DNA of 64,000 nucleotides from Haliotis rufescens (Eukaryota), in NCBI RefSeq assembly GCF_023055435.1, contig NW_025963891.1:9858001-9922000 (forward strand). The letters run 5' to 3'. Under the pieces are notes generated by a model. It made no database searches. It was not told the origin of the DNA and was given only the letters and a program-made list of their open reading frames with translations. Within the stretch, counting starts at the first letter, position 1, and every line of letters starts with the position of its first letter. Positions 6,356 through 41,925 of this stretch are shown here, in pieces. A program made the position numbers and the translations under genes.

Positions 6356-7015
6356 CTACTTATGTGACATCCTTCGCTTGAGATTGGTCAGTATAGTTCC
6401 TGGAAAGGTCATCCTTCGGGACGGCTGACCAAACCTGTCCTTGTACACAATGCATGCTTGTCTGAAAAGCTGACGAAATAGCCGATCAACCTGCTCCTTG
6501 TCTGCCGCTGATAGTTCCATGTACATGTGTTCCCAGTCAATGGTGGCCACAGCATCAGCAACTTGCCATATGGGAGTCTTCCTTTCCGCATCTATGTCCA
6601 CCTTATTGGCGACAATAAATAAGGGAACTTTCTGCTCCCCTTTCAGCTCCAGAATCAGATCCCTGAGCTTGTACAGCTCCTCAAATGAGTCTTTATCGAC
6701 TACAGAATACAGCAAGATGAAAGCATCTCCATTCTCAATGGCCATTTGTCTCACAGAGGGGACAGAATCGCCTTTCGTGATATCTACAATTTCCAAATTG
6801 ACTCGCACACCTCTGTCTTCAAATGGTCGAGAGTATATGGTCTCAAAGGTGCCTTTGTATTTTTCAAGAAACTGATCACCAAGAAACTTGGATATAAGGG
6901 TGCTCTTACCGACTCCTTCTCCTCCCAAGACAACGATTTTCAATTCCTCATGCTTCTTGGAAGAACGAATGGACAAAGGACTGAACGATTTCATTGTATT
7001 CTTACGGCTAGCCAT
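6356..7015 (-). CDS. Intronless Ras-family small GTPase, Rhes/RASD/Ras-dva/DIRAS-like, 219 aa, atypical
   Basis: G1 GGEGVGKS, G2-like YKGTFE, degenerate G3 DITKG, GDAFILLYS, G4 NKVD, G5 ELSAA. ATG at 7015 has a strong ACCATGG context and lies downstream of a TATA, so it is preferred over the GTG start at 7051. No CAAX. Confidence 0.88.
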   Translation of the reverse strand: MASRKNTMKSFSPLSIRSSKKHEELKIVVLGGEGVGKSTLISKFLGDQFLEKYKGTFETIYSRPFEDRGVRVNLEIVDITKGDSVPSVRQMAIENGDAFILLYSVVDKDSFEELYKLRDLILELKGEQKVPLFIVANKVDIDAERKTPIWQVADAVATIDWEHMYMELSAADKEQVDRLFRQLFRQACIVYKDRFGQPSRRMTFPGTILTNLKRRMSHK

Positions 7016-7059
7016 GGTGAGAGATGAGGTTTTCCAAAAGAATATGCACACTGCATTGT

Positions 7060-7105
7060 CGCTTTATATGGACTCGAGCCACACACGTCATGGTCACATG
7101 AGTCA
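7060..7105 (-). promoter_or_regulatory. Compact promoter of the Ras-like gene: TATA, CRE-like and AP-1 sites
   Basis: On the minus strand: CATATAAAGC at 7070-7061, TGACGTGT at 7090-7083, and TGAGTCA/TGACTCA at 7099-7105. Confidence 0.5.
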
Positions 7106-7533
7106 CCAGTTAGCAACACTTGTACTCGGTATTGTTGTTGGCGTTTCCAAGCCCTGTGAGACTTCTAACATAAGAAAAACGGCAATGTCTCTCACAACTG
7201 GTAACACGCGAAGAAACAAAGAAAACTGAGCTGAATCATTGATATAAGAATATACATAATGACTGATTATGAAATTAACTGTAACATTATATGAGAGGCG
7301 ACTAACGGGATCAGATGGTCAGGCGAGCTGACTTGGATGGTGCAGGTGCATTGTATCCGATATCCATGGTATCAATCCTATGGATTGTCTAGTTCAGACT
7401 CGATTATTTACAGACTGCCGTAAAATAGCTAGAAAATTGCGGAGTGCGGCTTTAAATAACAAACAAAAACTACAATAAGGAAAGAACTACTGAATTTATA
7501 CCAAAAACGGAAAACTGAACAACGATTGGATAA

Positions 7534-9781
7534 CTATATACACACCAGTTCCTGGCAGCCCTCGCTGAGCTTTCCACAGAACATGGTTTCGATCAGTTTA
7601 TTTACAGAGGCCTGTAAAAGAAAAGTTTTTTAACGACACGTAGTCATGATTTTATGACTGCATTACATCAACGTGTTCGATTTGTTAATTTAATTTAAAA
7701 CAAAATGGTACATGTTTATTTAGTTTGGGAAATAATGCAAATATGTCAGACCAACATTGGAGTGATTAAACCTTCTTAATATTTGTCACTCACAACATTG
7801 TCCATTTTCTTTTCTTTGATATCTTTTAGAAAGTTTTGGCAGTCCTTGCATCGCCCTCTCCCTTGAACCTACGGAAACATGAAATGACAAATTGTATGCA
7901 TCATTATGCCTACAAGTTTTAAACTTTCGTTTGTAACCAATGTAACAATAATATTGCAGCACAATAAGTGTGACGAATGGAGACCTCCCCTTTCTAACCA
8001 AGTACATTGTACAAATAATGTACACGTTAAGACATTCATTTGATTGTGTGTAAGTTTGATGAGTTATACTCACTAAACCTGTTGACTAGTGGACTAGGTA
8101 TTAATCTTGCCTTGTTTGTAGGTGTGTTCATGTTGATGGTATCAAGCGACGGACAGTTCTTGGTGGTTTTACAGATGGCTTTAGGGGTCTGCAGCTGTGA
8201 ATTGCTTACTCGCAGTGTACAATAATAATTATATAGTTAAAGGGGAAAATATAGTTCAGTTCTCAGCGTTTTGTGTAACTCAGTGAAAACAGGATAGAGG
8301 TTATTATTCTGATAAAGGAAATGTAAGCTAAAATGCTGAAAAAGAGGTATCCATCTCATTTCCCAGGTATCCAAATTCCATCTGATTGGTACATTCCTGA
8401 ACTTTTTGCATCAATCACCTTTTTCATGATGACAGTATATCCAAATGTAAGCTGACGAAATCTTGTGCTTCATGATTAGTCCATTGATTGGAGCAGGATT
8501 TCTGATGATGTGGAAGTTAACAGTTACCTGACTGTTGACTTTGTCTTTCTTCTCCAGGCATATTTTCTGCAATTTTGTCTTACACTGCAAATACGCGTTT
8601 TCACAATGTGAGCATCGAGAATACTAGGTTATCTAATTTACAGCGTTAAGGATCAACACAGTTTGCAATGAATATAGACCATTGCTCCTTTTTAATTATC
8701 TACCTTGTTAATACCATATCCTGTATAAAACATACATTCTCAACAAGGATATACAGGCAGTACTAGAGCGCTTAATGGTGATGAACAATGATAGTCGCTT
8801 GCCAAGGAAAATCAATATAATTACCTCAATTATCGGATGTGTGATATATTCAATACAATGCTCTTTGCAATAAAACATTTGATCTTGTTGTTTATGAAAT
8901 CCGTTTGTTTACTATTGAGAACTATTATTTATCTCACCTCTTCCACCTTGCTGGGTTCCATTGAAGAACAGACGTTGTTCATATTTGCTTCCTGTTCCTC
9001 CTGAAACACATGTTATATAAAAACCTCAGTACATTAGATCTGGAGAAGAGACATGAGTGTATTTGTGACATGTTTACATCCTTACTTTCAGGGGTAGACG
9101 TATCTTTAAATATATGGACAATCATGTAGTAATAGATTCATTCGTAGCAGATAGAATAGTGATAAATATATGAAAGTAGGGTTCAGTACATTATTATTCC
9201 TGGACAGATGCCATTTATTTTGGGAAATTGGAAAATTCAGATGTAGATTCCAAAAAGGAACACTTGGTTGACAGGTTCCATTACTTTATTTATTATATTC
9301 AGGGTAGGGGTATAAACCATCGTGTATAATTAAAAAGATAATGTTCTAAACATGTACGTATATGTAAGTGTGGACATTAAGAAATAACACGATTTTTACG
9401 AACCATCATGGGAAACAGTCAGTATTATTTACGTACAATCGATTCGAGTTCCATCTCCTGGCGATCAGTAATGAAAGCGATGCAATCAGCGCACTCATCA
9501 TTTCCATCCTGTATTGAAAGGGTCATAGCTGAAAATATGTAAATATAAAACGTCAACGCGTCAACTTTAGTCAAAAAATGATTTATGTAAATATGTTTAG
9601 ATTCGAACACATCAGAAAAAGAAGTAATGCATATAATTGGATATTTGTAAATATCATATTGCTGCGCCTTAGCCACGACCATCGTATCTACTGAGAAGTG
9701 GATAGTAAGAAGGCATGGCCATTTAAAACACTCACCCTGGCTTGCTACAACAGCGACAACAAATGCGAAAAAAGTCTTCAT
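7534..9781 (-). CDS. Copy A: 3'-truncated saposin-like gene (exons 1-7 only); may encode a 1.5-domain protein
   Basis: Exons 9781-9736, 9528-9437, 9000-8938, 8584-8528, 8188-8111, 7868-7794, 7611-7546, all in frame. TATA at 9833-9840. Homology to paralogous intron 7 ends at ~7240 and no exon 8 or 9 follows. Read-through into intron 7 gives VCI* ending at 7534. Confidence 0.65.
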
Positions 9782-10021
9782 TGTCCTTGAAGCTGAGAAA
9801 TTCAACTGTTGTGATGTGTTTAAATGTAAAGCTTTATATATGTTCCAATTCTTCATACATGATGACTTACATGTAATCAATTACATCTCACAGTAGAATA
9901 GCTCTAATTAACAGCAAACTAATTCAATTAGACGACTCAGACTGACAGATGTCCTGTTCTTAACGAATACACATGTTGAGACAATAATTCTCGCGTTCTT
10001 AATAAAATAACCTGTTTTTGA

Positions 10022-17184: not shown

Positions 17185-18784
17185 CTAGTTGGCACCACAC
17201 ATACCAAGTCGGTTGCATGCCGTTTTAACATCCTGTAATAACAAATGTTCCATTCTTTTACATATGTTTCCAAAAAAAACCAGTCGTCTTTTAACTCTAA
17301 CTAGCCAGGTTTTATACTTCAGTCCGATCATACATATTGATAAGTGGCTTTAATGGATATCTGTAAAGAAATCGATATATATGCCTGTAAAGTGTAAGTT
17401 TATGTATGTATTATTACAATGAGTATCTCACTTATACATCCAACATTTACTTACCACCAAATCTAGTAGCTCGATTTCCATTTCGATTGCTGCATATAGA
17501 AAGTCAACACACTGAAACAGAGTACACAGAATGCTCAAACATAATTAGATGAATGTGAAATTGTATACATACACACATTATATAATGATATAAGAATATA
17601 TAGCATGACTGATTATGAAATTAACTGTAACACAATATGAGGGGCGACCTACGGGATCAGATGGTCAGGCTAGCTGACTTGCATGGTGCACGTCATTGTA
17701 TCCGATACTCATGGTGTCAAACACATGGATTGTCTAGGACTACAATAAGGAAAGAACTACTGAATTTATATCATAATCAGAAAACTGAACAATGATTGGA
17801 TAACTATATACACACCTGTTCCTGGCGGTCTTCGCTGAGCATTTCACAGAACATGGTTTCGATCATTTATTTACAGAGGCCTGTAAAAGAAAAGTTTTTA
17901 ACTACAAGTAGTCATGAATTTGTGATTGCATGGTACATATTTTATGTATTTTGGGAAATAATGCAAATATGCCAGACCAACATCGGAGTCATAAAAACAA
18001 TTTGTCATTCACAACATCGTCCATTATCCTTTCTTTGACGTCTTTGAGAAAGTTCTTGCAGTCCTTGCATCGCCCTCTCCCTTGAACCTACGGAAACATG
18101 AAATGACAAATTGAATGCATTATTATGCCTACAGGTTTTAGGCTTTCGTTTGTAACCAATGTAACAATAATGTTGCAGCCCAATAAGTGTGACGAATGGA
18201 GACCTCCTCTTTCTAACCCAGTAAATTGTACAAATCATGTACACGTTAAGACATTCATTTGATTGTGTATAAGGTTGATGAGTTGTGCTCACTATACCTG
18301 TTGACTAGTGGACTAGTACTAGGTATTAATCTTGCCTTGTTTGTAGGTGTGTTCATGTTGGCGGTATCAAGCGACGGACAGAACTTGGTGGCTTTACAGA
18401 TGGCTTCAGGACTCTGTGAAGGTGAACACAATTGCATGATATGTTGTAAAACCAAATCCTTTTACTTACTCGCAGTGTACAATAATAATTATAGAGTTAA
18501 AGGTAAAAACATAGTTCAGTTCTCATCGTTTTGTGTAACTCAGTGAAAACATGAAAACGGTTATTATTCTGATAAAGGAAATGTAAGCTGAAATGCTGAT
18601 ATAGAGTTTTCCATCTCTTTCCCCGGGTATCCAAACTCCATCTGATTGGTAAATCCCTGAACTTGTGCTTCATGATTAGTCCATTGATTGGAGCAGAATT
18701 TCTGATTATGGGAAAGTTATCAGTTACCTGACTGTTGACTTTGTCCCTCTTCTCCTGGCATATTTTCTGCACCTTTGTCTTACA
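17185..18784 (-). pseudogene. Copy B: saposin-like pseudogene (exons 4-9 only, frameshift and stop in exon 7)
   Basis: Exons 18784-18728, 18413-18336, 18087-18013, 17880-17816 (65 nt instead of 66; AAT AAA CTG ATC became AAT AAA TGA), 17511-17455, 17232-17185. Promoter and exons 1-3 are absent. Confidence 0.85.
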
Positions 18785-18933
18785 CTGCAAATGCGAGTAG
18801 GATATTTACAAATATCCAATTATATGCATTAATCAGGATTTCTTTTCTGATTTGTTCGAATGTAAACATATATACATTAATCATTTTTTCACTGAAGTTG
18901 GCGCGTTGACGTTTTATATTTACATATTTTCAG

Positions 18934-21582
18934 CTATGTCCATGTCGATACAGGATGGAAATGATGAGTGTGCTGATTGCATCGCTTTCATTACTGATCG
19001 CCAGGAGATGGAACTCGAATCGATTGTACGTAAATAATACCGACTATATCCCATGATAGTTCGTAAAAATCGTGTTATTCAAAATGTGCCCACTAACATA
19101 TACGTACATGTTTAGAACATTATCTTATTGATTATACACTAATGGTTTATACCCTTATCCTTAATATAATTCATCAAAATGGGATATGTTGTCAACCAAG
19201 TGTCATTTTGGAAATAATATGGCACCTGTCAAGTCCTTAGAGGAATAATGTACTGAGTAATGTACTATCTACCATAAATGAATCTCTTACTGAAGATATG
19301 TCCATATATTTATCAGTATTCTATCTACCACAAATTAATCTATTACAACATATGTGTACATATTTTAAAAGAAGCCTATCCATGAAATTACGAATGTAAA
19401 ATGTCACAAATACACTGCTTCTTTCTCTTCTCCAGATTTAATGTACTGAGTTTTTAAACATTTCTTTCAGGATGAACAGGAAGCAAAAATGAACAATATC
19501 TGTTCCACAATGGAACCCAGCCAGGTGGAAGAGGTGAGAAAAATAATAGTTCTCAATAGTAGAAAAACGGATTTCATAAACAAGAAGATCAGACATGTCA
19601 TTGCAAAGAGGAATGTATTAAATATATCACACATCTGATAATTGAGGTAATAATTTTGATTATCTTTTGCAAACAATTATCACTGCTCAGCGTTCTAGAA
19701 CTGCCTGTATATTCTTGTTTAGAATGCATACATCCTAATATCGGAGGTGGTTTTAACAAGGTAGATAATTAAAAAGGAACAATAATCTCTATTCATTGTA
19801 AATTGTCACCTTTAAAATCTTAACGCCGTGATCATAGATAATCTTGTATTATCGAGGCTAACATTGTGAAAACGCGTATTTGCAGTGTAAGACAAAAGTG
19901 CAGAAAATATGCCAGAAGAAGAAGGACAAAGTCAACAGTCAGGTAACAGTTAACTTTTACATCATCAGAAATCCTTCTCCAATCAATGGACTACTCACGA
20001 ATCGAAGATTGCGTCAGCTTACATTTGCATATACTGACATCATGAAAAAGGCGATTGATGCAAAAAGTTCAGGGATGTACCAATCAGATGGAATTTGCAT
20101 ACCCAGGGAAGGAGATATATCTCACTATCAGCATTTCAGCTTACATTTCCTTTATCAGAATAATAACCTTTATCATGTATACACTGATTTACACAAAACG
20201 CTGAGAACTGAAATTTGTTTTCCCCTGCAACTCTGTTATTATAATTGTAAACTGCGAGTAAGTAAAAGGATTGGGTTTTACAACATATCATGCAAATGTG
20301 TTCACCTTCACAGAGTCCTGAAGCCATCTGTAAAGCCACCAAGTACTGTCCGTCGCTTGATACCGCCAACATGAACACACCCACAAACAAGGCAAGAATA
20401 ATACCTAGTACTAGTCCAGTAGTCAACAGGTTTAGTGAGTATAACTCATCAAACTTACACACAATCAAATGAATGTCTTAACGGAGGTCTTCATTCGTCA
20501 CACTTATTGTGCTACAATATTATTGTTACATTTGTTACAAACGAAAGCCTAAAAAACGTAGGCATAATGATACATTCAATTTGTCATTTCATGTTTCCGT
20601 AGGTTCAAGGGAGAGGGCGATGCAAGGACTGCAAGAACTTTCTCAAAGACGTCAAAGAAAGGCAAATGGACACTGTTGTGAGTGACAAATATTGAGAAGG
20701 TTTATCACTCCTATGTCGGTCTGGCATATTTGCATTTTTTCCCAAACTACATAAACATGTACCATCTTGTTTTAAGTTAAATTAACAAATCGTACACGTT
20801 GATGTTATGCAATTATAAAATCATGACTACTTTTAGTTAAAAGCTTTCCTGTTACAGGCCTCTGTAAATAAACTGATTGAAACCATGTTTGTTGAAAAGC
20901 TCAGCGAAGACCGCAAGGAACTGGTGTGTATATAGCTATCCAATACTTTTTCAGTTTTCTGTTTTTGATATAAATTCAGTAGTTCCATTCTAATTGTTTT
21001 TTAACGCCGCACTCTGCAATATGTTAGCTACTTTACTGCAGTCTGAAAATAATCGATTCTGGACCAGACAATCCAGTGATGGACATCATGAGTGTCGGAG
21101 ACAATGACGTGCACCATCCAAGTCAGCGAGCCTGACCATCTGATACCGTTAGTCGTCTCTCATATCTTGCAGTTAATTTCATAATGAGTCATCATATATA
21201 TTCTTATATCATTATATAATGTGTGTATGTTTATACTTTCAAACTCATCTAATTGTTTTTGAGCATTCTATGTACTCTGCTTCAGTGTGCTGACTTTCTA
21301 GATGCAGCAATCGAAATGGAAATCCAGCTGATAGATTTGGTAGTAAGTAAATGTTGGATGAATAAATGAGATACTCATTGTTTTAATACATGCATAAACT
21401 TACACTTTACAGCCATAGATATACCAAATAAGGACAATTATCAATATGTATAAATAACTGGATAGTTAGAGATAAAAGACTGATGTTTATTTAATTAAAC
21501 ATAAGTAAAAGAATGAAACATTTTTTTATTACAGGATGTTAAAACGTCATGCAATCGACTTGGTATGTGTGGTGCCAACTAG
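18934..21582 (+). pseudogene. Copy C: saposin-like probable pseudogene (exons 2-9, no promoter or signal-peptide exon)
   Basis: Exons 18934-19025, 19471-19533, 19886-19942, 20314-20391, 20603-20677, 20858-20923, 21286-21342, 21535-21582, in frame. Cys3 of domain 2 is replaced by Val (TTC TGT -> TTT GTT), and the poly(A) signal reads AATAAC at 22203. Confidence 0.8.
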
Positions 21583-23847: not shown

Positions 23848-25250
23848 TACTCAACAACAAAAGTTCCTGTGACACCAATATTTTAGTGTATTTTTCAAAC
23901 AAGTTAAGTTTGGTTTTCAATATTGTAGTACATGTATGGAATCAAGTCACAAAAATGCAACTGCTACAGAAAAGCATGCATTCCATGCAAAAGTTGACTT
24001 TTATGCAAGCCCCATGCATTTCACTACCAAAGAATTGGCATAAAAACATGTGCGTTAACGGGATTCCATATGCATTGTTTAGCATCGTGCTGACAACAAC
24101 CACTCCGAAAAACAACAAAATTACGCAATTATTCAACATTACGAAATGCCACGCCTGTCCGAAAATGAGCGTCTGCGAGCCATTGGTTACTTGAAGCAGG
24201 ATCGAGTCAACGTGATGTTGCAAGACAATTTAACGTCCACAGAAACACCATTTGGTGTTTATGGCAACGTTGGCAACAGACGAATGCAGTCAGAGACCAT
24301 CCTCGGAGTGGCAGGCCACGCGTAACCAATAAACGACAAGACAACTGGATTCGACCAACACACCTACGTAATCGATTCCAGCCAGCAAAAGTGACTGCAA
24401 GAAGCATCCCTGGCCTTCGACGAATATCTTCACAAACCGTACGTCGTTGTCTCAGATGTGCAGGGATTGTCGCCAGAAGACCCGCCAGACGTTCCATTTT
24501 GAGGGGACAAGTACCATTCACTGACGAGTCTCGTTTTCCCCTCAGCCACAGCGATGGACGGATTCGAATGTACCGACGTCGAGGTGAACGTTACGTCAAT
24601 AATTGTGTCATGGAAGAAGATCGGTTCGGGGGCGGCATGATATGGGTTGGGATTACAGCAAGACAGATGACCCGTTTGATAGTGGTAGAGGGAAATCTCA
24701 ATGGACAGCGCTACCGCGACGAGATCATCGGCCCTGTTGTTCTATCGTTTTTGCGTCGTCATGACCCAGGCATTACCTTTAAACATGACAACGCCCGGCC
24801 TCATATTGCTCGACTTGTTCAGGATTCCCTTCAACAAAACAACGTGAATGTCATCCCCTGGCCGGCTCGCTCCCCAGACCTCTCACTAATCGGGCACATG
24901 TGGGCTGAGATGGATCGGCGCCTTCGACGTCAACCACGTGTTCCACAGACACTCCAGGAACTTCGAAACATGCTCCAGCAGATATGGACAGATATCCCAC
25001 AGGACTTTGTGCGACGCCTGGTCCATTCCATGAGACGAAGATGTGTTGCTTGCATTGCAACCAGAGGTGGACACACACGCTATTGATTTGTAAATTGACA
25101 TTTTGGCATGTTCATGGTTTTTTTATGAAATCAGTATGGCAAATTAAACCATTTGAACACTTACGGGAGTCTTTTTTCTGTTGCAAACCGAAATGTTTCA
25201 GATTTGGTACATAACTTATTCAATGTTACAGGAACTTTTGTTGTTCAGTA
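23848..25250 (+). mobile_element. Tc1/mariner DNA transposon, full length but inactive
   Basis: 27-bp TIRs (TACTCAACAACAAAAGTTCCTGTGACA at 23848-23874; 25224-25250, 2 mismatches) with flanking TA. Transposase runs from ATG 24146 (frameshifted) to 25086 with FTDES, HDNARPH and WPARSPDL; the catalytic E is replaced by G (LIGHMW). Confidence 0.92.
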
Positions 25251-25492: not shown

Positions 25493-28032
25493 TGAACTGG
25501 ACAGATTTCCACGAGGTGAAGCCTTGTGGGAGGCTGTTGATGGGCACAGAAACAAATGGAACTTTCCGAACTGCGCAAGAGCAATTGATGCTACACATGT
25601 TCCCATTATTGCTCCGAACTATTGCCATGCTGATTTTGTGAACAGAAAAGGATGGTACTCCATCATTATGCAGGCTGTGTGTGATGTTTGCCAAATCTAC
25701 TTTGAAGACTATGGTCGACAATGGAAGCCTCCTGCCAACGTCACCTGAGAGGGTAACATCTGCTGGGCTTGACAATGCTCTTGTGGACATGCCGTTAGTT
25801 CTCACTGGTGACCCAGCTTACCCATTGTCCTCCTGGCTCCTGAAACCATTCACCAATAGAGGACAGCTCACAGCAGAACAGTTGTACTTCAACTACCTAA
25901 GCAGTGGCCGTATGACGATTGAGAATACATTCGGACGGTTCAAAGGTAGATGGAGGCGTTTCCTCAAGAGGGTTGACGTTGATGTCAATTTCGTATCAAC
26001 TCTTGTGGCTGCAGCTGTCGCACTACACAACCTGTGTGAAAACAAGGATCAGCCCTACCTTCCAGACTGGCACGCTGCAGTCCAAGATGCACATACATCC
26101 CAATCAGGAACCACAGACAACGTAGGGATCATACATGCACCTGGCACCGACATCAAAGATGCATTGACCCTTCAGTTTTGCAAGGATCGCATTTGAAGAA
26201 CATAAACAACACGTGGACAATTAGTTTGACATTTAATCTGAAATTACATGATTGCAAATAAAAAAAATCTTATCTTCGCAAATATACCATCTGTTTTAAA
26301 CATACGATGGGAAACAAACATCAGAAACCAATACTATCTGATACGTCGTGCAATATGACAATTATAGTATAACAGTTATGCATGAGTGTGACGTTAACTT
26401 AGATAATATAGAAATACTCTCATGTTTACATGTTACATACATGTGTACATGCATCGCATTGTGACAAAATACTATTTGTATCAACATAACACTGCTTAAA
26501 ATGATAACACATACACTACTAAATAAATAGTAAAAGGGCACCATTTCCACAGACAACTTATGTGTTTCAATACCAAATGATCATGATAAGTAACAAAACG
26601 AAGAGTCTTTTGGGGCAACAGGCAATGCAGTAGTCATGTACAGTTTACATGTTCAAGTAAGTACGTCCATCACTGCTCACAGTGTGATGACCCGTGAAGA
26701 TCCGGGTTAGAATAACCCATGCTTGCCGTAAAAGGCGACTATGCTTGTCGTAAGAGGCGACTAACGGGATCGGGTGGACAGGCTCGCTGACTTGGTTGAT
26801 GCATGTCATCATATCCCAATTGCATGGATAGATGCTCATGATGTCAATCACTGGATTGTCTGGTCCAGACTCGATTATTTACAGACCGCCGTAATATAGT
26901 TGGAATATTGCTGAGTGCGGCGTTAAACAACAAGCCAACCAACCAACCATCATAGTGTGATAATGGCGACTGGGAGACGAGTTTTTGTCCTCCACTGAGT
27001 CGTCTATGTTTCTTCTTGGAGTCGTCTGGATACCCTGTTGACTGTGTGACATTTTTTAGTTCAAAATCGCGTTTAGAGGCCTCGTCATCAAGTTTCTTCA
27101 TTTCATATTCCCGTCGAGCCTTTTCAAGATCGATATGGTTGCTTTCGATCATTTCGTTTGATTTGGTGAATTTGTCCATCACAGTATTTAGTGTGAGCTC
27201 AAGACGATTTTTTCTCTCCTTTCCCTTTAGCTTTGTTTTCCCAGATGCAGCATATTTGCCTTTACAAACAGTTGCTTCTGTCTGACTTGCAGTATCGGAA
27301 TCACTAACTTCACCATCTGCAATCACATTGGAATGTTTGATGGCACTACCACATGGCTGGACCTCAACTTCAGAATCATTGTCGTTTTCAAAATCAGACA
27401 AATCCTGCTCAGATACCATACTCTGTACGACCTTGGTTGGCGAAGTTGATGGCCTGTCTTCAAGAATCCCATTCAGGTCCGTCAAGTTTCTACACAGAGT
27501 CTGTGATTGTCCACTGGTTTTCAGTTTGTCTCCGTTCTTTGCACTGGCTTGGTGTTTTGACAAAAACCCTGTCCTTCATGACTGTGGTCACCTTCGCGTA
27601 AACGACTGTATCTGTAGCACTTGCACCGTCATGCTGGGCTTGTATATGTAATTCCAGCCACATGTCTGGCATACACTTGGTCTCCTCTTCAGACCATGCA
27701 TTACCTCGAGCACGTTTAGCTTTCGGCGGCATTTTTCAATCTAGCAGGAGAATGTTGTTGGTTTTGACTTCTAAAACTCCTCTTAAATATTGCATAATAT
27801 CTATTTATACATTTTCAAGAAATTCCCTGTGAGCAGGTCCATTGTAAATATATAGGGGTGTTGCAAGACAGTGAGGCAAATGTCTGGTGGGGCAAATGTC
27901 GGAATGCGTTTATATGCATATAATACCCCCTTAGGGTAAATGCGTTTACACGCCCAAATATACCCCAAGGGGCAGATATACCCACGAGGGTAAAAGTACC
28001 CCAGGGGTAAATGGATGCATATAAACAGGGCT
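25493..28032. mobile_element. PIF/Harbinger transposon relic: DDE nuclease (+, ~25493-26196) converging on a Myb/SANT-like gene (-, 27732-~27000)
   Basis: Nuclease motifs FPNCARAIDATHVPI, NRKGWYSIIMQAVCD, GDPAYPL, RMTIENTFGRFKGRWR (frameshifted). Partner gene WSEEETKC..W...VYAKV..M......KTPSQCKER. Right end ...ATATAAACAGGGCT followed by TAA, with subterminal TACCCC/GGGGTA repeats. No left end found. Confidence 0.85.
26689..26949 (+). mobile_element. Short retroposon family 3 (Nin-domain-like), inserted in the Harbinger
   Basis: Contains the TGTCGTAAGAGGCGACTAA hairpin, shares its 3' end with the other SINEs, (AACC)n tail; TSD TCA(C/T)AGTGTGAT at 26677-26688 and 26950-26961. Fragments at ~5140-5560, 7295-7470, 23340-23535 (-) and in intron 7 of the saposin copies. 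Confidence 0.7.
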
Positions 28033-30132: not shown

Positions 30133-33100
30133 CTAGTTGGCACCACACATACCAAGCCGATTGCATGACTTCTTAACATCCTGTAATAAGAACATGTTCC
30201 ACTCTTTTACATATGTTTAATTAAATAAACCTCAGTCTTTTATCTCTAACTAGCCAGTTATTTATACATATTGATAATTGTCCTTATTTGGTATATCTAT
30301 GGCTGTAAAGTGTAAGTTTATACATGTATTAAAACAATGAACATCTCATTCATACATCCAACATTTACTTACTACCAAATCTAGTAGCTCGATTTCCAAT
30401 CCAGTTGCTGCATCTAGAAAGTCAGCACACTGAAACAGAGTACACAGAATGCTCAAAAATAATTAAATGAATTTAAAAGTATAAACATACACACATTTAA
30501 GATGATATAAAAAAATATATATGATGACTCATAATGAAATTAACTGTAAGATATGAGAGACGACTAACGGGATCAGATGGTCAGGGTGAANNNNNNNNNN
30601 NNNNNNNNNNNNNNNNNNNNNNNNNNNNNNNNNNNNNNNNNNNNNNNNNNNNNNNNNNNNNNNNNNNNNNNNNNNNNNNNNNNNNNNNNNNNNNNNNNNN
30701 NNNNNNNNNNNNNNNNNNNNNNNNNNNNNNNNNNNNNNNNNNNNNNNNNNNNNNNNNNNNNNNNNNNNNNNNNNNNNNNNNNNNNNNNNNGAATTAAATG
30801 AATTGTCTGGTCCAGACATTATTCATTACAGACTGACGTAAAAAAGCTAGCCAATTGCGAAGTGATGTGCTTATTAACAAACAAAAAATATAAAATAAGA
30901 AAAGAACTACTGAATTTATATCAAAAACAGAAGACTGAAAAAATGTTTGTATAACTTTATACACACCTGTTCATGGCGGTCTTCGCTGAGCTTTTCACAG
31001 AACATGGTTTCGATCAGTTTATTCACAGAGATCGGTAAAGAAAAGTTTTTAACTACATGTAGTCATTTTTTTATGATTGCATTACATCAACGTGTAAGAT
31101 TTGTTATTTAACTTAAAACAAGATGGTACATGTTTTATGTATTTTGGGAAATAATGCAAATGTGCCAGACCAACATAGGAGTGATAAACCTTCTCAATAT
31201 TTGTCACTCACAACATTGTCCATTTCCTTTTCTTTGACGTCTTTGAGAAAGTTCTTGCAGTCCTTGCATCGCCCTTTCCCTTGAACCTACGGAAACATGA
31301 AATGACAAAGTTTTTAGACTTTCGTTTGTAACAAATGTAACAATAATATTGTAGCACAATAAGTGTGACGAATGGAGACCTCCCCTTTCTAACCCAGTAC
31401 ATTGTACAAATCATGTACACGTTAAGGCATTCATTTGATTGTGTGTAAGCTTGATGAGTTGTGCTCACTAAACCTGTTGACTAGTGGACTAGTACTAGGT
31501 ATTAATCTTGCCTCGTTTGTGGGTGTGTTCATGTTGACGGTATCAAGCGACGGACAGAACTTGGTGGCTTTACAGATGGCTTCAGGGGTCTGTGAAGGTG
31601 AACACAATTGCATGATATGTTGTAAAACCCAATCCTTTTGCTTACTCTCAGTTTACAATAATAATTATAGAGTTAAAGGGAAAAACATAGTTCAATTCTC
31701 AGCGTTTTGTGTAAATGGAGTTTTCCCTCTCTTTCCCCGGGTATCTAAATTCCATCTGATTGGTACATTCCTGAATTTTTTGCATCAATCACCTTTTTCA
31801 TGATGTCAGTATATGCAAATGTAAGCTGACGCAATCTTGTGCTTCATGATAAGTCCATTGATTGGAGCAGGATTTTTGATGATGTAAACGTTAACAGTTA
31901 CCTGACTGTTGACTTTGTCCTTCTTCTTCTGGCATATTTTCTGCACTTTTGTCTTACACTGCAAATACGCGTTTTCACAATGTGAGCCTCCATAATACCA
32001 GATTATCTATGATCACGGCGTTAAGATTTTATAGGTAACAATTTACAATGTTCCTTTTTAATTGCCTACCTTGTTTATATCACATCCGATATTATGTATG
32101 CATTCTAAACAAGAATATACAGGCAGCTCTGGAACGCTTTTCATCATGGTGATGAACAATGATAATTGTTTGCAAAAGATAATCAAAATTATTACCTCAA
32201 TTATCGGATGTGTGATATATTTAATACATTCCTCTTTGCAATGAAATGTCTGATCTTGTTGCTCATAAAATCCGTTTGTCTACTATTGAGAACTATTATT
32301 TGTCTCACCTCTTCCACCTTGCTGGGTTCCATTGTGGAACAGATAATGTTCATTTTTGCTTCCTTATCATCCTGAAAGAAAAGTATAAAAACTCAATACA
32401 TTAAAGCTGGAGAAGAGAAAGAAGCAGTGTATTTGTGACATTTAACATTCATAATATCATGGATAGGCTTCTTTTAAAATATAGAGACATATGTAGTAAT
32501 AGATTAATTTGTGGTAGATAAAAAACTGATTAATATATGGACATATCTTCAGTAATAGATTCATTTATGGTCGATAGTACATTACTCAGTACATTATTCC
32601 TCTAAGAACTTGACAGTTGCCATATTATTTCCAAAATGAACACTTGGTTGACAACAAATCCCATTTTGATGTATTATATTGAGGATTAGTGTATAAACCA
32701 TTAGTGTGTAATCAATAGGATAATGTTCTACACATGTACGTATATATAAGTGTGGACATTTAGAAATAACTCCATCTTTACGAACTATAATGGGATATAG
32801 TCGGTATTATTTACGTACAATCGATTCGAGATCCATCTCCTGGCGATCAGTAATGAAAGCGATGCAATCAGCGCACACATCATTTCCATCCTGTATCGAC
32901 ATGGCCATAGCTGAAAACATGTAAACATAAAACGGCAACGCGTCAACTGAAAATGATTAATGTAAATATGTTTAGATTCTAACACATGACAAACGCATCC
33001 TTACAAGTCTAGCTATCTTCACACATCATATTGCGGCGCCTTAGTCACGTACCATCGTATCTACTGAGAAGTGGATAGTAAAATATCATGGCCACACTCA

Positions 33101-33147
33101 CCCTGGCCTGCTGCAACAGCAACTACAAATGCGAAAAAGGTCTTCAT
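30133..33147 (-). CDS. Copy D: two-domain saposin-like gene with all 9 exons but a mutated exon 7 acceptor (exon-skipping variant or young pseudogene)
   Basis: Exons (5'->3') 33147-33102, 32910-32819, 32371-32309, 31958-31902, 31589-31512, 31286-31212, 31032-30967, 30429-30373, 30180-30133. Frames open; TATA at 33199-33206. The acceptor before exon 7 reads TTTACCG, against TTACAG in the other copies. The N gap falls in intron 7. Confidence 0.75.
30591..30790. other. Assembly gap (200 N) inside intron 7 of copy D
   Basis: Run of N. Confidence 1.
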
Positions 33148-36920: not shown

Positions 36921-37078
36921 GGGGCGGTCGGGTAGCCTAGTGGTTAAAGCGTTCGCTCGTCACACCGAAGACCCGGGTTCGATTCCCGACATTGGTACAA
37001 TGTGTGAAGCCCATTTCTGATGTCCCCCGCCATGATATTGCTGGAATATTGCTAAAAGCGGTGTTAAGCCATACTCAC
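36921..37078 (+). mobile_element. tRNA-derived SINE (family 1)
   Basis: TSD TCAATATGACG at 36908-36918 and 37079-37089; empty paralogous site at ~47259. Confidence 0.9.
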
Positions 37079-38041
37079 TCAATATGACGTGATTCACATA
37101 ACATTTGTTATCTGATCAACTCATTTCTCGTTATGTGCCAATCTACAATATAAAGTTCACTACCACAGTTCTCGGTAGAATCCATAAGGACAGCCTTTTG
37201 AGTTGCCGTGTGCTTAAATTATTTTGCTTGAAAAAATTCATGTATATTGCATTAGTATAATTACTACATATCAATTGTTAGGTTGATATGCCAGACAAAA
37301 GACAAAAATGTCCCAAATGATGGTTCAAAACCCATGACCATTGGATGCTGGGGTACGATTCATGACACCTTATCTCACACAATAATATATATTACAACAA
37401 CTGATAATCTTGAAGACACTGGGATCAAATAAACTGGCGGGCTAAAGAATGTACACACTTGAAAAAGGATTTTGAAAAAAAATTGAGAGAAAACGTTATT
37501 AGTTTAAAAACAGTCGCTGAAACACTGCACACTTAAGGACCAAATCACAACTACCATACCCCTATCAAATACATGACTATCGAATCATCATTTCTTGTTT
37601 GTTTCATTTTCAGACATCATTCAACATGTGTGTATACATTCTTTTACCCATCTTTTGACGAGGTGAAAGGGGTTATAGGAAATAAGTTTATGTTTATCAC
37701 CTGATGTTTCCTTAATAGCAATGTCAAGTAATTGACATATTTTAGTATACATGTAACTGCAAAACAAATTTAATCAACTGTCGACATATCAATTTATTTT
37801 AATGTGTATTACCATGGTCAACAGTAGGTGGCAAAGATGTCTACTCTAGACTAATGTCAAATACTGGTTATATTATTAAGAACGCCGCCATTTTCGTCTC
37901 AATATGTGTAGGTATCAAACAGAGAATATTCATTATGAATAGGATATTTTCTCCCGAGTCATCCAATAGAATCAGTTTGATAAGAGTAATCCCGCTGTGC
38001 GCTGTGATCGACAAACTCATCAACTATGAAGAATTGGAAAA

Positions 38042-38100: not shown

Positions 38101-40879
38101 ATGAAGACCTTTTTCGCATTTGTTGTCGCTGTTGTAGCAAGCCAGGGTGAGTGTTTTAAATGGCCATGCCTTCTTACTATCCCCTTCTCAGCAGATACGA
38201 CGGTAGTGGCTAAGGCGCAGCAATATAATATTTGAAGATATCCAATTATATGCATTAATCAGGAATTGTTTTCTGAAAATGTTTACATTGATCATTTATG
38301 ACTAAAGTTGACGCGTTGACGTTTTATATTTACATGTTTTCAGCTATGGCCCTGTCGAAACAGGGTGGAAATGATGAGTGCGCTGATTGCATCGCTTTCA
38401 TTACTGATCGCCAGGAGATGGAACTCGAATCGATTGTACGTAAATAATACCGACTATATCCCATGATAGTTCGTAAAAATCGTGTTATTTCCAAACGTAC
38501 CCACTAACATATACGTACATCTTTAGAACACTATCTTTTTAATTATACACTATGGTTTATATCCTTACCCTCAATATAATAGATAGAGTAATACTCAACC
38601 AAGTATTCGTTTCGGAATCTACATCTGAATTTTCCAATTTCCCCAAATAAATGGCAACTTTCCAGTCGTTGGTAGAATATGTCACTGAACCCTACTCTCA
38701 TATATTTATCAGTATTCTATCTACTACAAATAGATCTATTACTACATATAATTGAAAATAAGTCTACCCCTAAACGTAAGGAGGTAAACATGTCACAAAT
38801 ACACTCTTGTCTCTTCTCCAGATCTAATGTACTGAGTTTTTATATAACGTGTTTCAGGAGGAACAGGAAGCAAAAATGAACAACGTCTGTTCTTCAATGG
38901 AACCCAGCAAGGTGGAAGAGGTCAGACAAGTAATAGTTCTCAAAAGTAAACAAACGGATTTCATAAACAACAAGATCAGATGTTTCATTGCAAAGAGCAA
39001 TGTTCTGAATATACCACAAGGTAGATAATTAAAATAATATATATTCAATGCAAACTGTGTGGATCCTTAACGCTGTGAATGAGATAAACTAATATTTATA
39101 TGGTATTAACAAGATAGATAATTAAAAAGGAACAATAATCTATATTCATTGCAAACTGTGTTGATCCTTATAAACGCGTATTTGCAGTGTAAGACAAAAG
39201 TGCAGAAAATATGCCAGAAGAAGAAGGACAAAGTCAACAGTCAGGTAACTGTTAATTTTTACATCATCCGAAATCCGGCTCCAATCAATGGACTAATCAC
39301 GAAGCACAAGATTGCGTCAGCTTACATTTGCATATACTGACATCATGAAAAAGGTGATTGATCCAAAAAGTTCAGGAATATACCAATCAGATGGAATTTA
39401 GATACCGGGGAAGGAGATTGAAAACTCTATATCAGCATCCTTTTTCAGAATTATAACCTTTATCATGTTTTCACTGAGTTACACAAAATGCTGAGGATTG
39501 GACTACGTTTTTTCCCTTTAACTCTATAATTATTATTGTACACTGCGAGTAAGCAAAAGGATTTGGTTTTACAACATATCATGTAATTGTGTTCACCTTC
39601 ACAGACCCCAGAAGCCATCTGTAAAGCCACCAAGTACTGTCCGTCGCTTGATACCGTCAACATGAACACACCCACAAACAAGGCAAGATTAATACCTAGT
39701 ACTAGTCCACTAGTCAACAGGTTTAACAGTTTAACTTATCAAACTTACACATAATCAAATGATTGTATTAACGTGTTCTTGGTTTGTACAATCTACTGGG
39801 TTCGAAAGTAGGTTCTTCTTTCGTCACACTTATTGTGCTGCAATATTAGTGTTACATTGGTTACAAGCGAAAGTCTAAAAACTGTAGGTATAATGATGTA
39901 TTCAATTTGTCATTTGATGTTTCCGTAGGTTGGAGGGAAACGGCGATGCAAGGACTGCAAGAACTTTCTCAAAGACGTCAAAGAAAGGCAAATGGACACT
40001 GTTGTGAGTGACAAATGTTGAGAAGGTTTATCACTCCTATGTTGGTTTGGCATATTTGCATTATTTCCAGAAAATACATAAAGTATGTACCATCTTGTTT
40101 TAAGTTAAATTAACAAATCGTACACGTTGATGTAATGCAATCATAAAATCATGACTACGTGCAGTTAAAACTTTTCTTTTACAGGCCTCTGTAAATGAAC
40201 TGATCGAAACCATGTTCTGTGAAAAGCTCAGCGAAGACCGCGAGGAACAGGTGTGTATATAGTTATCCAATTATTGTTCAGTTTTCTTATTATGATATAA
40301 ATTCAGGAGTTCTTTCCTTATTGTAGTCCTAGACAATCCATGTGTTTGACACCATGAGTATTGGATACAATATCATGTACCTTCCAAGTCAGCGTGCTTG
40401 ACCATCTGATCCCGTTAGTAGCCTCTCATATAATGTTACTGTTAATTTCATAATCAGTCATCACATATATTCTGATATCCTTTTATAATGTGTGTGTGTA
40501 CAATTTCAAATTTTTCTAATTATTTTTGAGCATTCTGTGTACTCTGTTTCAGTGTGCTGACTTTTTAAATGCAGCAATCGAAATGGAAATCGCTCTACTA
40601 GATTTGGTGGTAAGTAAATTTTGGATGTGTAAGTGAGATACTCATTGTTTTAAGACATACATAAACTTACACTTTACAGGCATATATACCGATGTTTTTA
40701 CACATATCCATTAAGGCCACTTATCAATATGTATGATCCGACTGAAGTATAAAACCTGGCTAGTTAGAGTTAAAAGACTACTGTTTATTCAATTAAACAT
40801 ATGTAAAAGATTGGAACATTTTTTATTACAGAATGTTAAAACGTCATGCAAACTACTTGGTATGTGTGGTGCCAACTAG
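38101..40879 (+). CDS. Copy E: secreted two-domain saposin-like protein (SAPLIP), 193 aa, 9 coding exons, intact
   Basis: Exons 38101-38146, 38344-38435, 38858-38920, 39188-39244, 39605-39682, 39929-40003, 40185-40250, 40553-40609, 40832-40879 (582 nt). All acceptors AG; all donors GT except intron 5 (GC). Protein: MKTFFAFVVAVVASQAMALSKQGGNDECADCIAFITDRQEMELESIEEQEAKMNNVCSSMEPSKVEECKTKVQKICQKKKDKVNSQTPEAICKATKYCPSLDTVNMNTPTNKVGGKRRCKDCKNFLKDVKERQMDTVASVNELIETMFCEKLSEDREEQCADFLNAAIEMEIALLDLVNVKTSCKLLGMCGAN*. Signal peptide plus two C-x2-C-x25/26-C-x10-C-x23-C-x5-C arrays (saposin B spacing). TATA at 38042. Confidence 0.9.
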
Positions 40880-41836
40880 TTGTAAGGTGAGTCGTATTGA
40901 ACGTGATATTGGCGAGGGAGGGTGAAGTGATCCGAAATGATTTTTTAAGATCGTGTTCAAGATTACTGCACTCCATGTGGCGGCTTGTTCTTGTCCGGAC
41001 TTTATAGTGCTTGCTCACTGAGATGACATGTTGCAGTGTCACATGGAAACCCCACTATGACACATAATACTCAGACAACGAGCCGGCCAGTGTTTGTTGA
41101 TGGTTGATGTTGCGCTAAAGCACAAACGGGTGCTTTTGAACATTGCTACTCTCCTTTTACAAATTGAAATTATATACTGTTTCGTGTTGATTCCCAAATT
41201 GAAATAGCATGTTAATCCAGAAATCTGAGCGTTAAAGAACTTTGTGTGAAACCAACAAACAAGCAGCATGATGTATACAATCAACAAATGAATAACAAAA
41301 ATTAACTAGGTTTACAAATCAGGAAAAAATACTCCACATTAATTACAATAGCTCCTCGGGCAGACGCTCTGTCCAATTCACCATGGAGTTTCTCCTTCTG
41401 TCTGGTTTCACCACTGTCTGAGGAACAAGTTTCGGTTGGAACTATTGACTGTTTGTTTAGTACACTTCAACGCCGAAATCAACAATATTTCAGCTATATG
41501 AAGGCCTGTCTGAGCCAGACAAGCCAGAAACTGTGCACACCTTTGGTACACGATTACACGCAAACGGCAAAATTACCGAGCCTGACCACTCGACCCATTA
41601 AGTCGCCTCTATCGACCAGCATAGGTTGATTGGGAGAAATACCTACTCTGGGCCAACTGTCTTCTGCTCCCCGGACAGACGTTCTAACCACTTCTACACG
41701 AAGGCGGTTTATCGGGAGATGGTCCTCATGCGTTGTGCAAATAGTACGCTTTCCTGATGACTAGTCATGATATAAACTACTATTACATTATCAAACATGA
41801 CACGGTTAACTTCATCTTGAACTTTCGGCATTGCAG

Positions 41837-41925
41837 ATGCTGAAAATGCTGCCTCTCGATCTTTCATCGCCCACGGACAACGTCACATGTAAACCATGGT
41901 CAATAAAACTTTGCATTTAACCAGA
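41837..41925 (+). other. Probable non-coding terminal exon (3' UTR) with poly(A) signal, copy E
   Basis: Conserved AAG|GTGAGT donor 7 nt after the stop codon (40886|40887), conserved TTGCAG acceptor ending at 41836, AATAAA at 41902-41907. Equivalents (exon start/signal): F 52083/52148, G 62066/62131, D 29486/29421 (-), C 22140, B 16266 (-). Confidence 0.6.

What the first reader, a model, noticed from the sequence alone, without database searches (positions are those of the whole stretch)
38344..40879. The two saposin domains have mirror-image charge, and domain 1 has lost its hydrophobic C-terminal helix
Domain 1 has an acidic first half (DRQEMELESIEEQE) and a strongly basic, hydrophilic segment after Cys4 (KTKVQKICQKKKDKVNSQ), where saposins normally have an amphipathic Leu/Ile-rich helix. 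Domain 2 is the reverse: a basic start (RRCKDCKNFLKDVKER) and an acidic, hydrophobic exon 8 (ADFLDAAIEMEIELLDLV). Exon 4 is identical in protein sequence in C, D, E, F and G. Inference: the domains pack against each other, or swap halves, as a charge-complementary pair. The acidic domain could mask a cationic membrane-binding face until low pH or cleavage releases it.
Basis: partly seen in the sequence, partly recalled or inferred. Interest (0 to 1): 0.7.

Follow-up and report, generated by a model that had tools for sequence, protein, structure and literature searches.

The report
Abalone saposin with a polar half
A spliced abalone gene, one of a tandem run of about twelve copies, encodes a likely secreted protein with two saposin-type domains, the first of which has swapped much of its greasy lipid-holding face for charged residues and is predicted to be a self-neutralising helical hairpin, so that probably only the second domain still binds lipid.

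Summary
The gene is real: 9 coding exons (38101-40879), all 8 introns spliced in transcript-like contigs, and a product identical to a Haliotis rufescens RefSeq protein. Domain 1's exon-4 helix is a true outlier: 17% hydrophobic and +5, against 26-54% and at most +2 in 270 ordinary saposin domains. Exon 4 is invariant to the nucleotide in 10 copies. The 'mirror-image' reading is overstated. Both domains have the same net charge and pI (about 4.95, no His). Domain 2's acidic, hydrophobic exon 8 is ordinary and is the most variable exon, and this copy lacks two of the quoted acids. The exon-4 helix is not lost; it is predicted with high confidence. The conserved disulfides place domain 1's acidic arm (-6) antiparallel to its own basic arm (+7), so the charges most likely pair inside domain 1. 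Both domains lack a hinge Gly/Pro and are predicted as open hairpins. Domain-domain packing is not excluded (invariant Lys79 and Glu171). The family arose from ordinary saposin genes next door. No description of it was found in the papers searched or in earlier scan notes. New variant of a known kind.

The parts
38101..38146 (+). Exon 1 of the focal copy (E): start codon and hydrophobic leader, likely a signal peptide (judged by eye; no predictor run)
   Evidence: intron 1 spliced in X1, X2
38344..38435 (+). Exon 2: end of leader, Cys28/Cys31, helix 1 of domain 1, start of the acidic arm
38858..38920 (+). Exon 3: rest of the acidic arm, Cys57, turn
39188..39244 (+). Exon 4: Cys68, basic polar helix with extra Cys76 and the Lys79-Lys80-Asp81-Lys82 motif; no nucleotide difference among 10 copies (invariant run 39172-39249)
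39605..39682 (+). Exon 5: last helix of domain 1 (Cys92, Cys98) and interdomain linker; followed by a GC-AG intron
39929..40003 (+). Exon 6: basic start and helix 1 of domain 2 (Cys119, Cys122)
40185..40250 (+). Exon 7: helix 2 of domain 2 (Cys149)
40553..40609 (+). Exon 8: Cys160 and amphipathic helix 3 of domain 2; most variable exon among the copies; invariant Glu171 and Asp176
40832..40886 (+). Exon 9: last helix of domain 2 (Cys184, Cys190), stop codon ending at 40879
41837..41907 (+). Exon 10, untranslated; its end is inferred from an AATAAA at 41902-41907
   Evidence: loose ends at 40886 in X2 and X6 match this place (compared by eye)
7546..9781 (-). Copy A: exons 1-7; exons 8-9 not found in 7000-10000; three amino-acid changes in exon 4
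17185..18784 (-). Copy B: exons 4-9 only, one base missing in exon 7; two amino-acid changes in exon 4
18934..21582 (+). Copy C: exons 2-9; exon 1 not found; Cys149 replaced by Val
30133..33147 (-). Copy D: nine exons; the acceptor before exon 7 reads CG, not AG; joined exons equal RefSeq protein P0016
48447..51214 (+). Copy F: intact, equals RefSeq protein P0014
58473..61226 (+). Copy G: intact

Best explanation
The gene encodes a spliced, likely secreted two-domain saposin-like protein in which domain 1 has replaced much of its lipid-facing core with charged residues and is predicted to form an open, disulfide-stapled helical hairpin whose acidic and basic arms likely neutralise each other, while domain 2 keeps an amphipathic face and is probably the only lipid- or surface-binding part. 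SHOWN: gene structure, splicing, cysteine pattern, loss of hydrophobic core residues in domain 1, equal net charge of the two domains, same exon plan as the ordinary saposin gene next door. PREDICTED: two continuous helices per domain (open form). INFERRED: the standard disulfides (28-98, 31-92, 57-68) set the two arms antiparallel, so Glu40-Glu50 lie along Lys71-Lys82. New hydrophobic residues at normally polar sites (Ile32, Leu43, Ile46) extend a narrow coiled-coil stripe through the old hinge. Domain 2 would then anchor on lipid or pair with another domain 2, and domain 1 would act as a soluble charged arm that shows the conserved Lys79-Lys82 patch to a polyanion or partner protein. The odd Cys76 may link two chains.
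For: Domain 1 is outside the range of 270 comparison domains in hydrophobicity (0.21 overall, minimum 0.25) and in charge of the Cys4-Cys5 segment, whereas domain 2 is inside it (0.33, mean 0.35). Nine of 20 core positions are polar in domain 1. Arm charges are -6/+7 in domain 1 and -1/-2 in domain 2. Opposite-minus-like charge pairs across the disulfide register score +14 (+15 with the fixed register) for domain 1, against mean -1.3, SD 3.3, maximum 10 in 270 domains. Two AlphaFold2 runs on different alignments both give helix 24/26-58 plus helix 62-83/85, with block pLDDT 67-89 and 78-91 over residues 31-90; in the first, domain 1 is confident while domain 2 is not. Best matches in the second look are open saposins: SapA-LDAO 4ddj Z 9.3, rmsd 4.3, 75 aligned (domain 1); open SapC 2qyp Z 9.0, rmsd 4.7, 75 aligned (domain 2). 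A Gly/Pro at Cys4+6 to +11 is present in 208 of 270 comparison domains and 1 of 26 family domains. Leu/Ile43, Ile46, Met53, Val72 are kept in all 19 proteins. Saposin topology (helix 1 with 4, helix 2 with 3; the open form exposes the hydrophobic face): PMC7614494, passages read.
Against: Shuffling residues within each arm gives scores as high as the real one in 18-28% of shuffles, so the effect is arm composition, not a special residue-by-residue register. The score falls to +6 and +7 in the H. asinina and H. rubra proteins and to -9 in the domain 1 of P0020. Alignments were shallow (9 and 17 rows), and long helices may be over-predicted. Unrelated helical hairpins tie with open SapA in the wide fold search (Z 8.1-8.5), and Foldseek gave nothing at E<=0.001. 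Domain 2 also departs at 7 of 20 core positions (three of these have a hydrophobic neighbour one residue away). Lipid binding by domain 2, secretion, the tissue and any ligand of domain 1 are untested.
Confidence: 0.5

Rival explanations
1. One reading: the two open hairpins of one chain pack face to face like an open saposin dimer, with buried salt bridges (for example Lys79 with Glu171) in place of lipid. Domain 1 caps the hydrophobic face of domain 2 until low pH, lipid or cleavage releases it.
For: Lys79 and Glu171 sit at the same position (Cys4+11), hydrophobic in 93% of comparison domains, and each is invariant in 19 of 19 proteins. Domain 2's arms face acid against acid more than shuffles do (P 0.02-0.12), leaving an unpaired acidic patch. 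Domain 2 has a wide hydrophobic face that needs a partner. The 20-residue linker is predicted disordered. A Lys-Arg or Arg-Arg site precedes domain 2 in copy E and in the H. asinina and H. rubra proteins.
Against: Equal net charge and pI, no His. Exon 8 has 11 non-synonymous changes among 10 copies and exon 4 none; Asp165, Glu169 and Glu173 are each replaced in some proteins. The dibasic site is absent in copies A, B, C, D and H. Domain 1 already balances its own charge. What would be masked is hydrophobic and acidic, not cationic.
Confidence: 0.25
2. The protein has left lipid handling altogether. Both domains are open rods; domain 1's lysine patch and domain 2's acidic patch bind polyanions and cations (mucus or algal polysaccharide, Ca2+) or a receptor, and chains cross-link through Cys76 and domain 2 dimers into a structural or signalling secretion.
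For: Both domains are far more charged than ordinary saposins (0.33-0.42 against mean 0.21, maximum 0.36). There is no N-glycosylation sequon and no Pfam saposin hit in 19 of 19 proteins. The tandem amplification suggests demand for quantity. A saposin-like fold that probably does not bind lipid in the usual way is known in cone snails (PMC10437998, passages read).
Against: Domain 2 keeps an ordinary hydrophobic content and most core residues. Cys76 is Ser in 2 of 19 proteins. The ordinary saposin neighbour is spliced in the same three runs, which fits a shared lipid-related role. No ligand evidence.
Confidence: 0.17
3. Domain 1 is a decaying or purely pro-piece domain, and the frozen exon 4 reflects a recent gene-conversion tract, not selection.
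For: Between species exon 4 is no better conserved than other exons (11/19, 14/19, 13/19). Absence of synonymous change cannot be told from chance (2 expected, P about 0.14 by my Poisson estimate). Lys78 is Glu in the broken copies A and B and in P0017, P0018 and P0020, so it looks recent.
Against: Domain 1's six standard Cys are kept in all intact copies, and Phe34, Asp37, Arg38, Glu40, Met41, Glu44, Ile46, Glu50, Met53, Val72, Lys79, Asp81 are invariant across four species at about 60% identity. The invariant run matches the exon and its splice signals almost exactly (78 nt; next longest 28). The broken copies do vary there.
Confidence: 0.08

Closest known systems
Saposin-like proteins (SAPLIPs): human saposins A-D / prosaposin, especially open forms (PDB 4ddj, 2qyp, 5nxb, 5u85)
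   Same: Six-cysteine spacing in both domains; weak sequence matches (SapB E 0.066 to domain 1, SapD E 0.14 to domain 2); best fold matches in the second look; acidic pI; tandem domains behind a leader.
   Different: Domain 1 lacks the amphipathic helix 3 and nine core hydrophobic residues; hinge Gly/Pro missing; no N-glycan sequon; seventh Cys in domain 1; no Pfam SapB_1/SapB_2 hit; predicted open without lipid.
Ordinary multi-saposin genes directly downstream (G000:C113 about 9.983-10.017 Mb, minus strand; H. asinina 'prosaposin-like' P0020 N-terminal part)
   Same: Four exons per domain, all phase 0, with an exon starting exactly at Cys4 (75/69/60/90-93 nt against 75/63-66/57/78 here); spliced in the same runs X1, X2, X6.
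   Different: The neighbour keeps the Pro-Gly hinge and Leu/Val-rich helix 3, and has GT-AG introns at the joints seen.
Uncharacterised Haliotis RefSeq proteins ('proactivator polypeptide-like 1', 'prosaposin-like'; XP_046350243.2 = P0013)
   Same: P0013 is identical to this copy's product; relatives at 57-98% in H. cracherodii, H. rubra, H. asinina.
   Different: Names are automatic; no paper on them was found.
[quoted passage not shown]
   Same: Gastropod secreted proteins that reuse a saposin-like fold and probably do not bind lipid as SAPLIPs do.
   Different: Those are locked closed by five disulfides and have no identified saposin ancestor; here the standard cysteines are kept, the predicted form is open, and the likely parent gene lies next door. 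No sequence comparison with them was made and nothing suggests a toxin.
Surfactant protein B (mature domain)
   Same: Saposin fold forming covalent homodimers (PMC6719169, start of abstract in search listing); an odd seventh Cys (recalled).
   Different: SP-B is very hydrophobic; its extra Cys lies close after Cys4 (recalled), against eight residues after it here, where it is Ser in 2 of 19 proteins.

Membership tests
Saposin-like proteins (SAPLIP, saposin B-type domain) | Six cysteines in saposin spacing per domain | tested here: met
   Cys 28,31,57,68,92,98 (+76) and 119,122,149,160,184,190; they align with those of ordinary saposin domains.
Saposin-like proteins (SAPLIP, saposin B-type domain) | Disulfide connectivity 1-6, 2-5, 3-4 | not testable with these tools
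Saposin-like proteins (SAPLIP, saposin B-type domain) | Homology to known saposin domains | tested here: met
   Profile search returns multi-saposin proteins down to E 7e-40 (names); ESM Atlas first hit 0.90 to a cluster with SapB_2 59%; shared exon plan with the ordinary neighbour. Pfam SapB models did not hit (0 of 19).
Saposin-like proteins (SAPLIP, saposin B-type domain) | All-helical saposin fold | tested here: inconclusive
   Predicted open hairpins; open saposins rank first in the second look (Z 9.3, 9.0) but tie with unrelated hairpins in the wide search; Foldseek E>0.001.
Lipid-binding saposins (SapA-D type) | Amphipathic helices with a large hydrophobic inner face - domain 1 | tested here: not met
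   0.17 hydrophobic in Cys4-Cys5, 0 of 270 as low; 9 of 20 core sites polar.
Lipid-binding saposins (SapA-D type) | Amphipathic helices with a large hydrophobic inner face - domain 2 | tested here: met
   0.33 overall, 0.43 in Cys4-Cys5; 7 of 20 core sites depart, three with a hydrophobic neighbour.
Lipid-binding saposins (SapA-D type) | Lipid or membrane interaction | not testable with these tools
   Needs liposome or detergent assays.
Prosaposin orthologues | Four or more B domains, saposin A-type end pieces, N-glycan sequons | tested here: not met
   Two domains, no A-type end piece in the 193-residue product, no N-x-S/T.
Cationic antimicrobial SAPLIPs (NK-lysin, granulysin type; definition recalled) | Net cationic amphipathic domain | tested here: not met
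   Both domains have pI near 4.95; the basic segment is not amphipathic.

The most novel reading that the evidence does not exclude
Abalones have turned a saposin domain into a permanently open, lipid-free, disulfide-stapled coiled coil. It clamps onto its sister domain through a buried Lys79-Glu171 bridge at the position where lipid normally sits, giving a one-chain open saposin 'dimer' that is released by pH or cleavage, or that binds polyanions instead of lipid. With the ordinary parent gene next door, it would be a traceable case of a lipid-transfer fold being rewired.
Probability: 0.2. Interest if true: 0.65.

Novelty: new variant of a known kind. Interest (0 to 1): 0.36.

Why it matters
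Saposin domains work by opening on a hinge to expose a hydrophobic face. Here is a natural, amplified and expressed family in which one domain has lost that face and both lack the hinge Gly/Pro, next to the unchanged parent genes. It gives a clean natural test of what makes a saposin bind lipid and stay open, of use to those who build saposin nanodiscs. It is also an apparently undescribed secreted protein family of a farmed mollusc. It does not overturn any principle: saposin-like folds with non-lipid roles are known.

Tried and rejected
Complex prediction of domain 1 (24-101) with domain 2 (113-193): verdict 'no answer', scores 0.06 and 0.05 against a mark of 0.34; the alignment was not used and no controls were folded; not counted either way. 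No run was on record as RNA; the four laid runs are guessed RNA, and only their spliced joints are used. Runs with next to none of the words, and X21 showing no joint on the neighbour gene, were not used as tissue evidence. No closed saposin heads the VIA-align lists; this absence is not evidence. Ferritin-like Foldseek rows (rmsd 14-18, E>0.4) were rejected as generic helices. Pfam GAS, E 0.006-0.06, below its cut-off, was rejected as a coiled-coil match. ESM Atlas on domain 1 alone gave at most 0.83, a lead only. A residue-level salt-bridge register in domain 1 did not beat within-arm shuffles. In ordinary saposins the charges of paired helices are not correlated, so no general rule supports either pairing. 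Identity with the H. asinina mucus-associated proteins could not be checked (paper not held; only its citation seen). The SAPLIP review PMC1175101 was not held. A saposin-domain gene higher in ovary than testis of H. discus hannai (PMC11989308, passages read; supplements not opened) could not be mapped to this family. Paper searches that found no description of the family: (listings only, except as stated); subscription journals and supplements were not searched. Earlier scan notes: nothing near, nothing by sequence, three unrelated notes by words.

Full report
THE GENE. The finding lies in one of seven copies in the window of a nine-exon gene. The focal copy (E) runs from the ATG at 38101 to the stop ending at 40879 and gives 193 residues: a hydrophobic leader, two cysteine-patterned domains and a 20-residue linker. 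All eight coding introns are bridged by contigs of guessed-RNA runs, and loose ends show a tenth, untranslated exon from 41837. The product is identical to P0013, a Haliotis rufescens RefSeq protein with an automatic name. A search of the own genome finds 12 exon-4 matches, all within 110 kb of one contig. Of the 12 copies, eight have nine exons and an open frame (one of them, D, with a damaged acceptor); A, B, C and K are incomplete. Close relatives were found only in Haliotis.

IT IS A SAPOSIN DERIVATIVE. Pfam saposin models do not hit (0 of 19 proteins). However, a profile of the family retrieves multi-saposin proteins of tunicates, echinoderms and limpets, human saposins B and D are the only PDB sequence matches (E 0.07-0.14), and the ESM Atlas points to SapB clusters (0.90). 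Ordinary hydrophobic saposin genes lie just downstream of the array. One of them has the same plan of four phase-0 exons per domain with an exon starting at Cys4 and is spliced in the same runs X1, X2 and X6. The family is most simply a local offshoot of these genes (inference).

WHAT IS UNUSUAL. I compared the domains with 270 distinct saposin domains cut by cysteine pattern from 38 of the retrieved proteins. Family members P0001-P0019, the family-type domain of P0020, and eleven isoform or paralogue records were left out, and many of the 270 are repeats within one protein, so they are not independent. Domain 1's Cys4-Cys5 segment is 17% hydrophobic and +5; the comparison range is 26-54% and -9 to +2. 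Nine of 20 core positions are polar (Arg38, Glu42, Gln49, Lys71, Lys79, Lys80, Lys82, Gln86, Thr95). Domain 1's acidic first half is not unusual (75 of 270), nor is domain 2's exon 8 (0.43 hydrophobic, the mean); domain 2's basic start is mild (+2; maximum +3). Domain 2 departs at 7 of 20 core positions but has normal overall hydrophobicity.

NOT A MIRROR PAIR. Both domains carry -3 and have pI 4.97 and 4.93, with no histidine. Counting between the cysteines, domain 1's arms are -6 and +7, domain 2's -1 and -2. The exon-8 string quoted in the finding is the family consensus; this copy has Asn and Ala at two of the quoted acids, and exon 8 is the most variable exon (14 variable sites, 11 replacements). 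A surface that pairs with an invariant basic helix would be expected to vary less.

WHERE THE CHARGES PROBABLY PAIR. In saposins helix 1 is tied to helix 4 by two disulfides and helix 2 to helix 3 by one (PMC7614494, passages read). Applied here, residue i of the first arm lies near residue 124-i of the second, which lays Glu40-Glu50 along Lys74-Lys82 of the same domain. A crude pair score gives +14 to +15 for domain 1, against -1.3 +/- 3.3 (maximum 10) in the 270. Against this: within-arm shuffles reach the same score in 18-28% of trials, so it reflects arm composition only, and the score is lower in the other species (+6, +7, -9). Two AlphaFold2 runs (9 and 17 rows; mean pLDDT 52.5 and 67.9; pTM 0.41 and 0.56) predict domain 1 as two long unbroken helices plus a short last helix, at 67-91 block pLDDT; the second run predicts domain 2 likewise at 66-76. 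Open saposins rank first in the second look but tie with generic hairpins in the wide search. In keeping with straight helices, only 1 of 26 family domains has the Gly/Pro found after Cys4 in 208 of 270 ordinary ones, and domain 1 has gained conserved hydrophobic residues (43, 46) in the old first hinge. I had no coordinates, so contacts are inferred.

Lys79 and Glu171 replace the same core hydrophobic position in the two domains and are invariant in all 19 proteins from four species. Domain 2 sets acids against acids across its arms and has a wide hydrophobic face that needs a partner. Face-to-face packing of the two hairpins cannot be excluded; I put it at about one in four. If it occurs, the masked face is hydrophobic and acidic, not cationic. 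A dibasic site before domain 2 is present in some copies only.

THE FROZEN EXON. Exon 4 has no nucleotide difference among ten copies whose genes differ by up to 16%; the invariant run (39172-39249) covers the exon and its splice signals, and the flanks vary. Chance placement gives P=0.0008 for any empty exon, and the pattern holds among the divergent copies C, D, E, G alone. About seven replacements but only two silent changes were expected, so purifying selection and a conversion tract cannot be told apart. The broken copies A and B do vary here. H. cracherodii paralogues show only Lys-to-Arg changes. Between species the exon is ordinary in identity (58-74%), with Lys79, Asp81, Ser85 and Gln86 invariant.

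LIKELY WORKING. A secreted two-part molecule: domain 2 anchors on lipid or pairs with another domain 2, and domain 1 is a soluble, self-neutralising rod that shows a lysine patch, possibly linked chain to chain by the odd Cys76 (Ser in 2 of 19). Secretion, tissue, lipid binding and ligand are untested. Confidence in the whole mechanism is 0.5; the loss of the lipid face in domain 1 is much firmer.

NOVELTY. No description of the family was found in the searches listed under Tried and rejected; subscription papers and supplements were not covered. Saposin-like folds that probably do not bind lipid in the usual way are known, including in cone snails (PMC10437998, passages read), but those are locked closed. 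A predicted open, charge-zipped saposin beside its ordinary parent gene is a new variant of a known kind. Interest 0.36.

Noticed in passing
window 39683-39928 and the same intron in all 12 copies: Intron 5 has a GC donor in every copy and is spliced in contigs; the joints seen in the ordinary neighbour gene are GT-AG.
   Followed up: partly
window about 18784-18934: Copies B (minus, exons 4-9) and C (plus, exons 2-9) are joined head to head within 150 bases, each missing its 5' exons; looks like an inversion-deletion junction.
   Followed up: partly
window 31032-31034 (minus strand, copy D): The acceptor before exon 7 reads CG instead of AG, yet the RefSeq protein P0016 equals the fully spliced product.
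   Followed up: partly
L004 (copy K, G000:C113 about 9.957-9.960 Mb): Exon 9 not found; RefSeq models P0002 and P0018 appear to run exon 8 into the normally untranslated last exon, giving odd C-termini.
   Followed up: partly
L007:4200-5300 and L008:2000-7000 (minus), also G000:C113:10017262: A second tandem family of ordinary hydrophobic multi-saposin genes directly downstream; the H. asinina model P0020 fuses such a gene to a domain 1 of the polar family.
   Followed up: partly
window 6356-7063 (minus): Open frame of 235 residues with a Ras-family match (E 4e-29), just beyond the truncated end of copy A.
   Followed up: partly
window 24169-25086 (plus): Tc1/mariner-type transposase frame (DDE_3, E 4e-10) between copies C and D.
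   Followed up: partly
window 26844-27575 (minus): Stop-to-stop frame of 243 residues with no Pfam match.
   Followed up: no
window 36921-37091, also 5181, 10239, 11072: A dispersed repeat of about 170 bases in four copies, tRNA-like by eye, probably a SINE.
   Followed up: no
P0031 (unnamed, 228 residues): A two-saposin protein whose second domain resembles domain 2 here while its first domain is ordinary; a possible intermediate state.
   Followed up: partly
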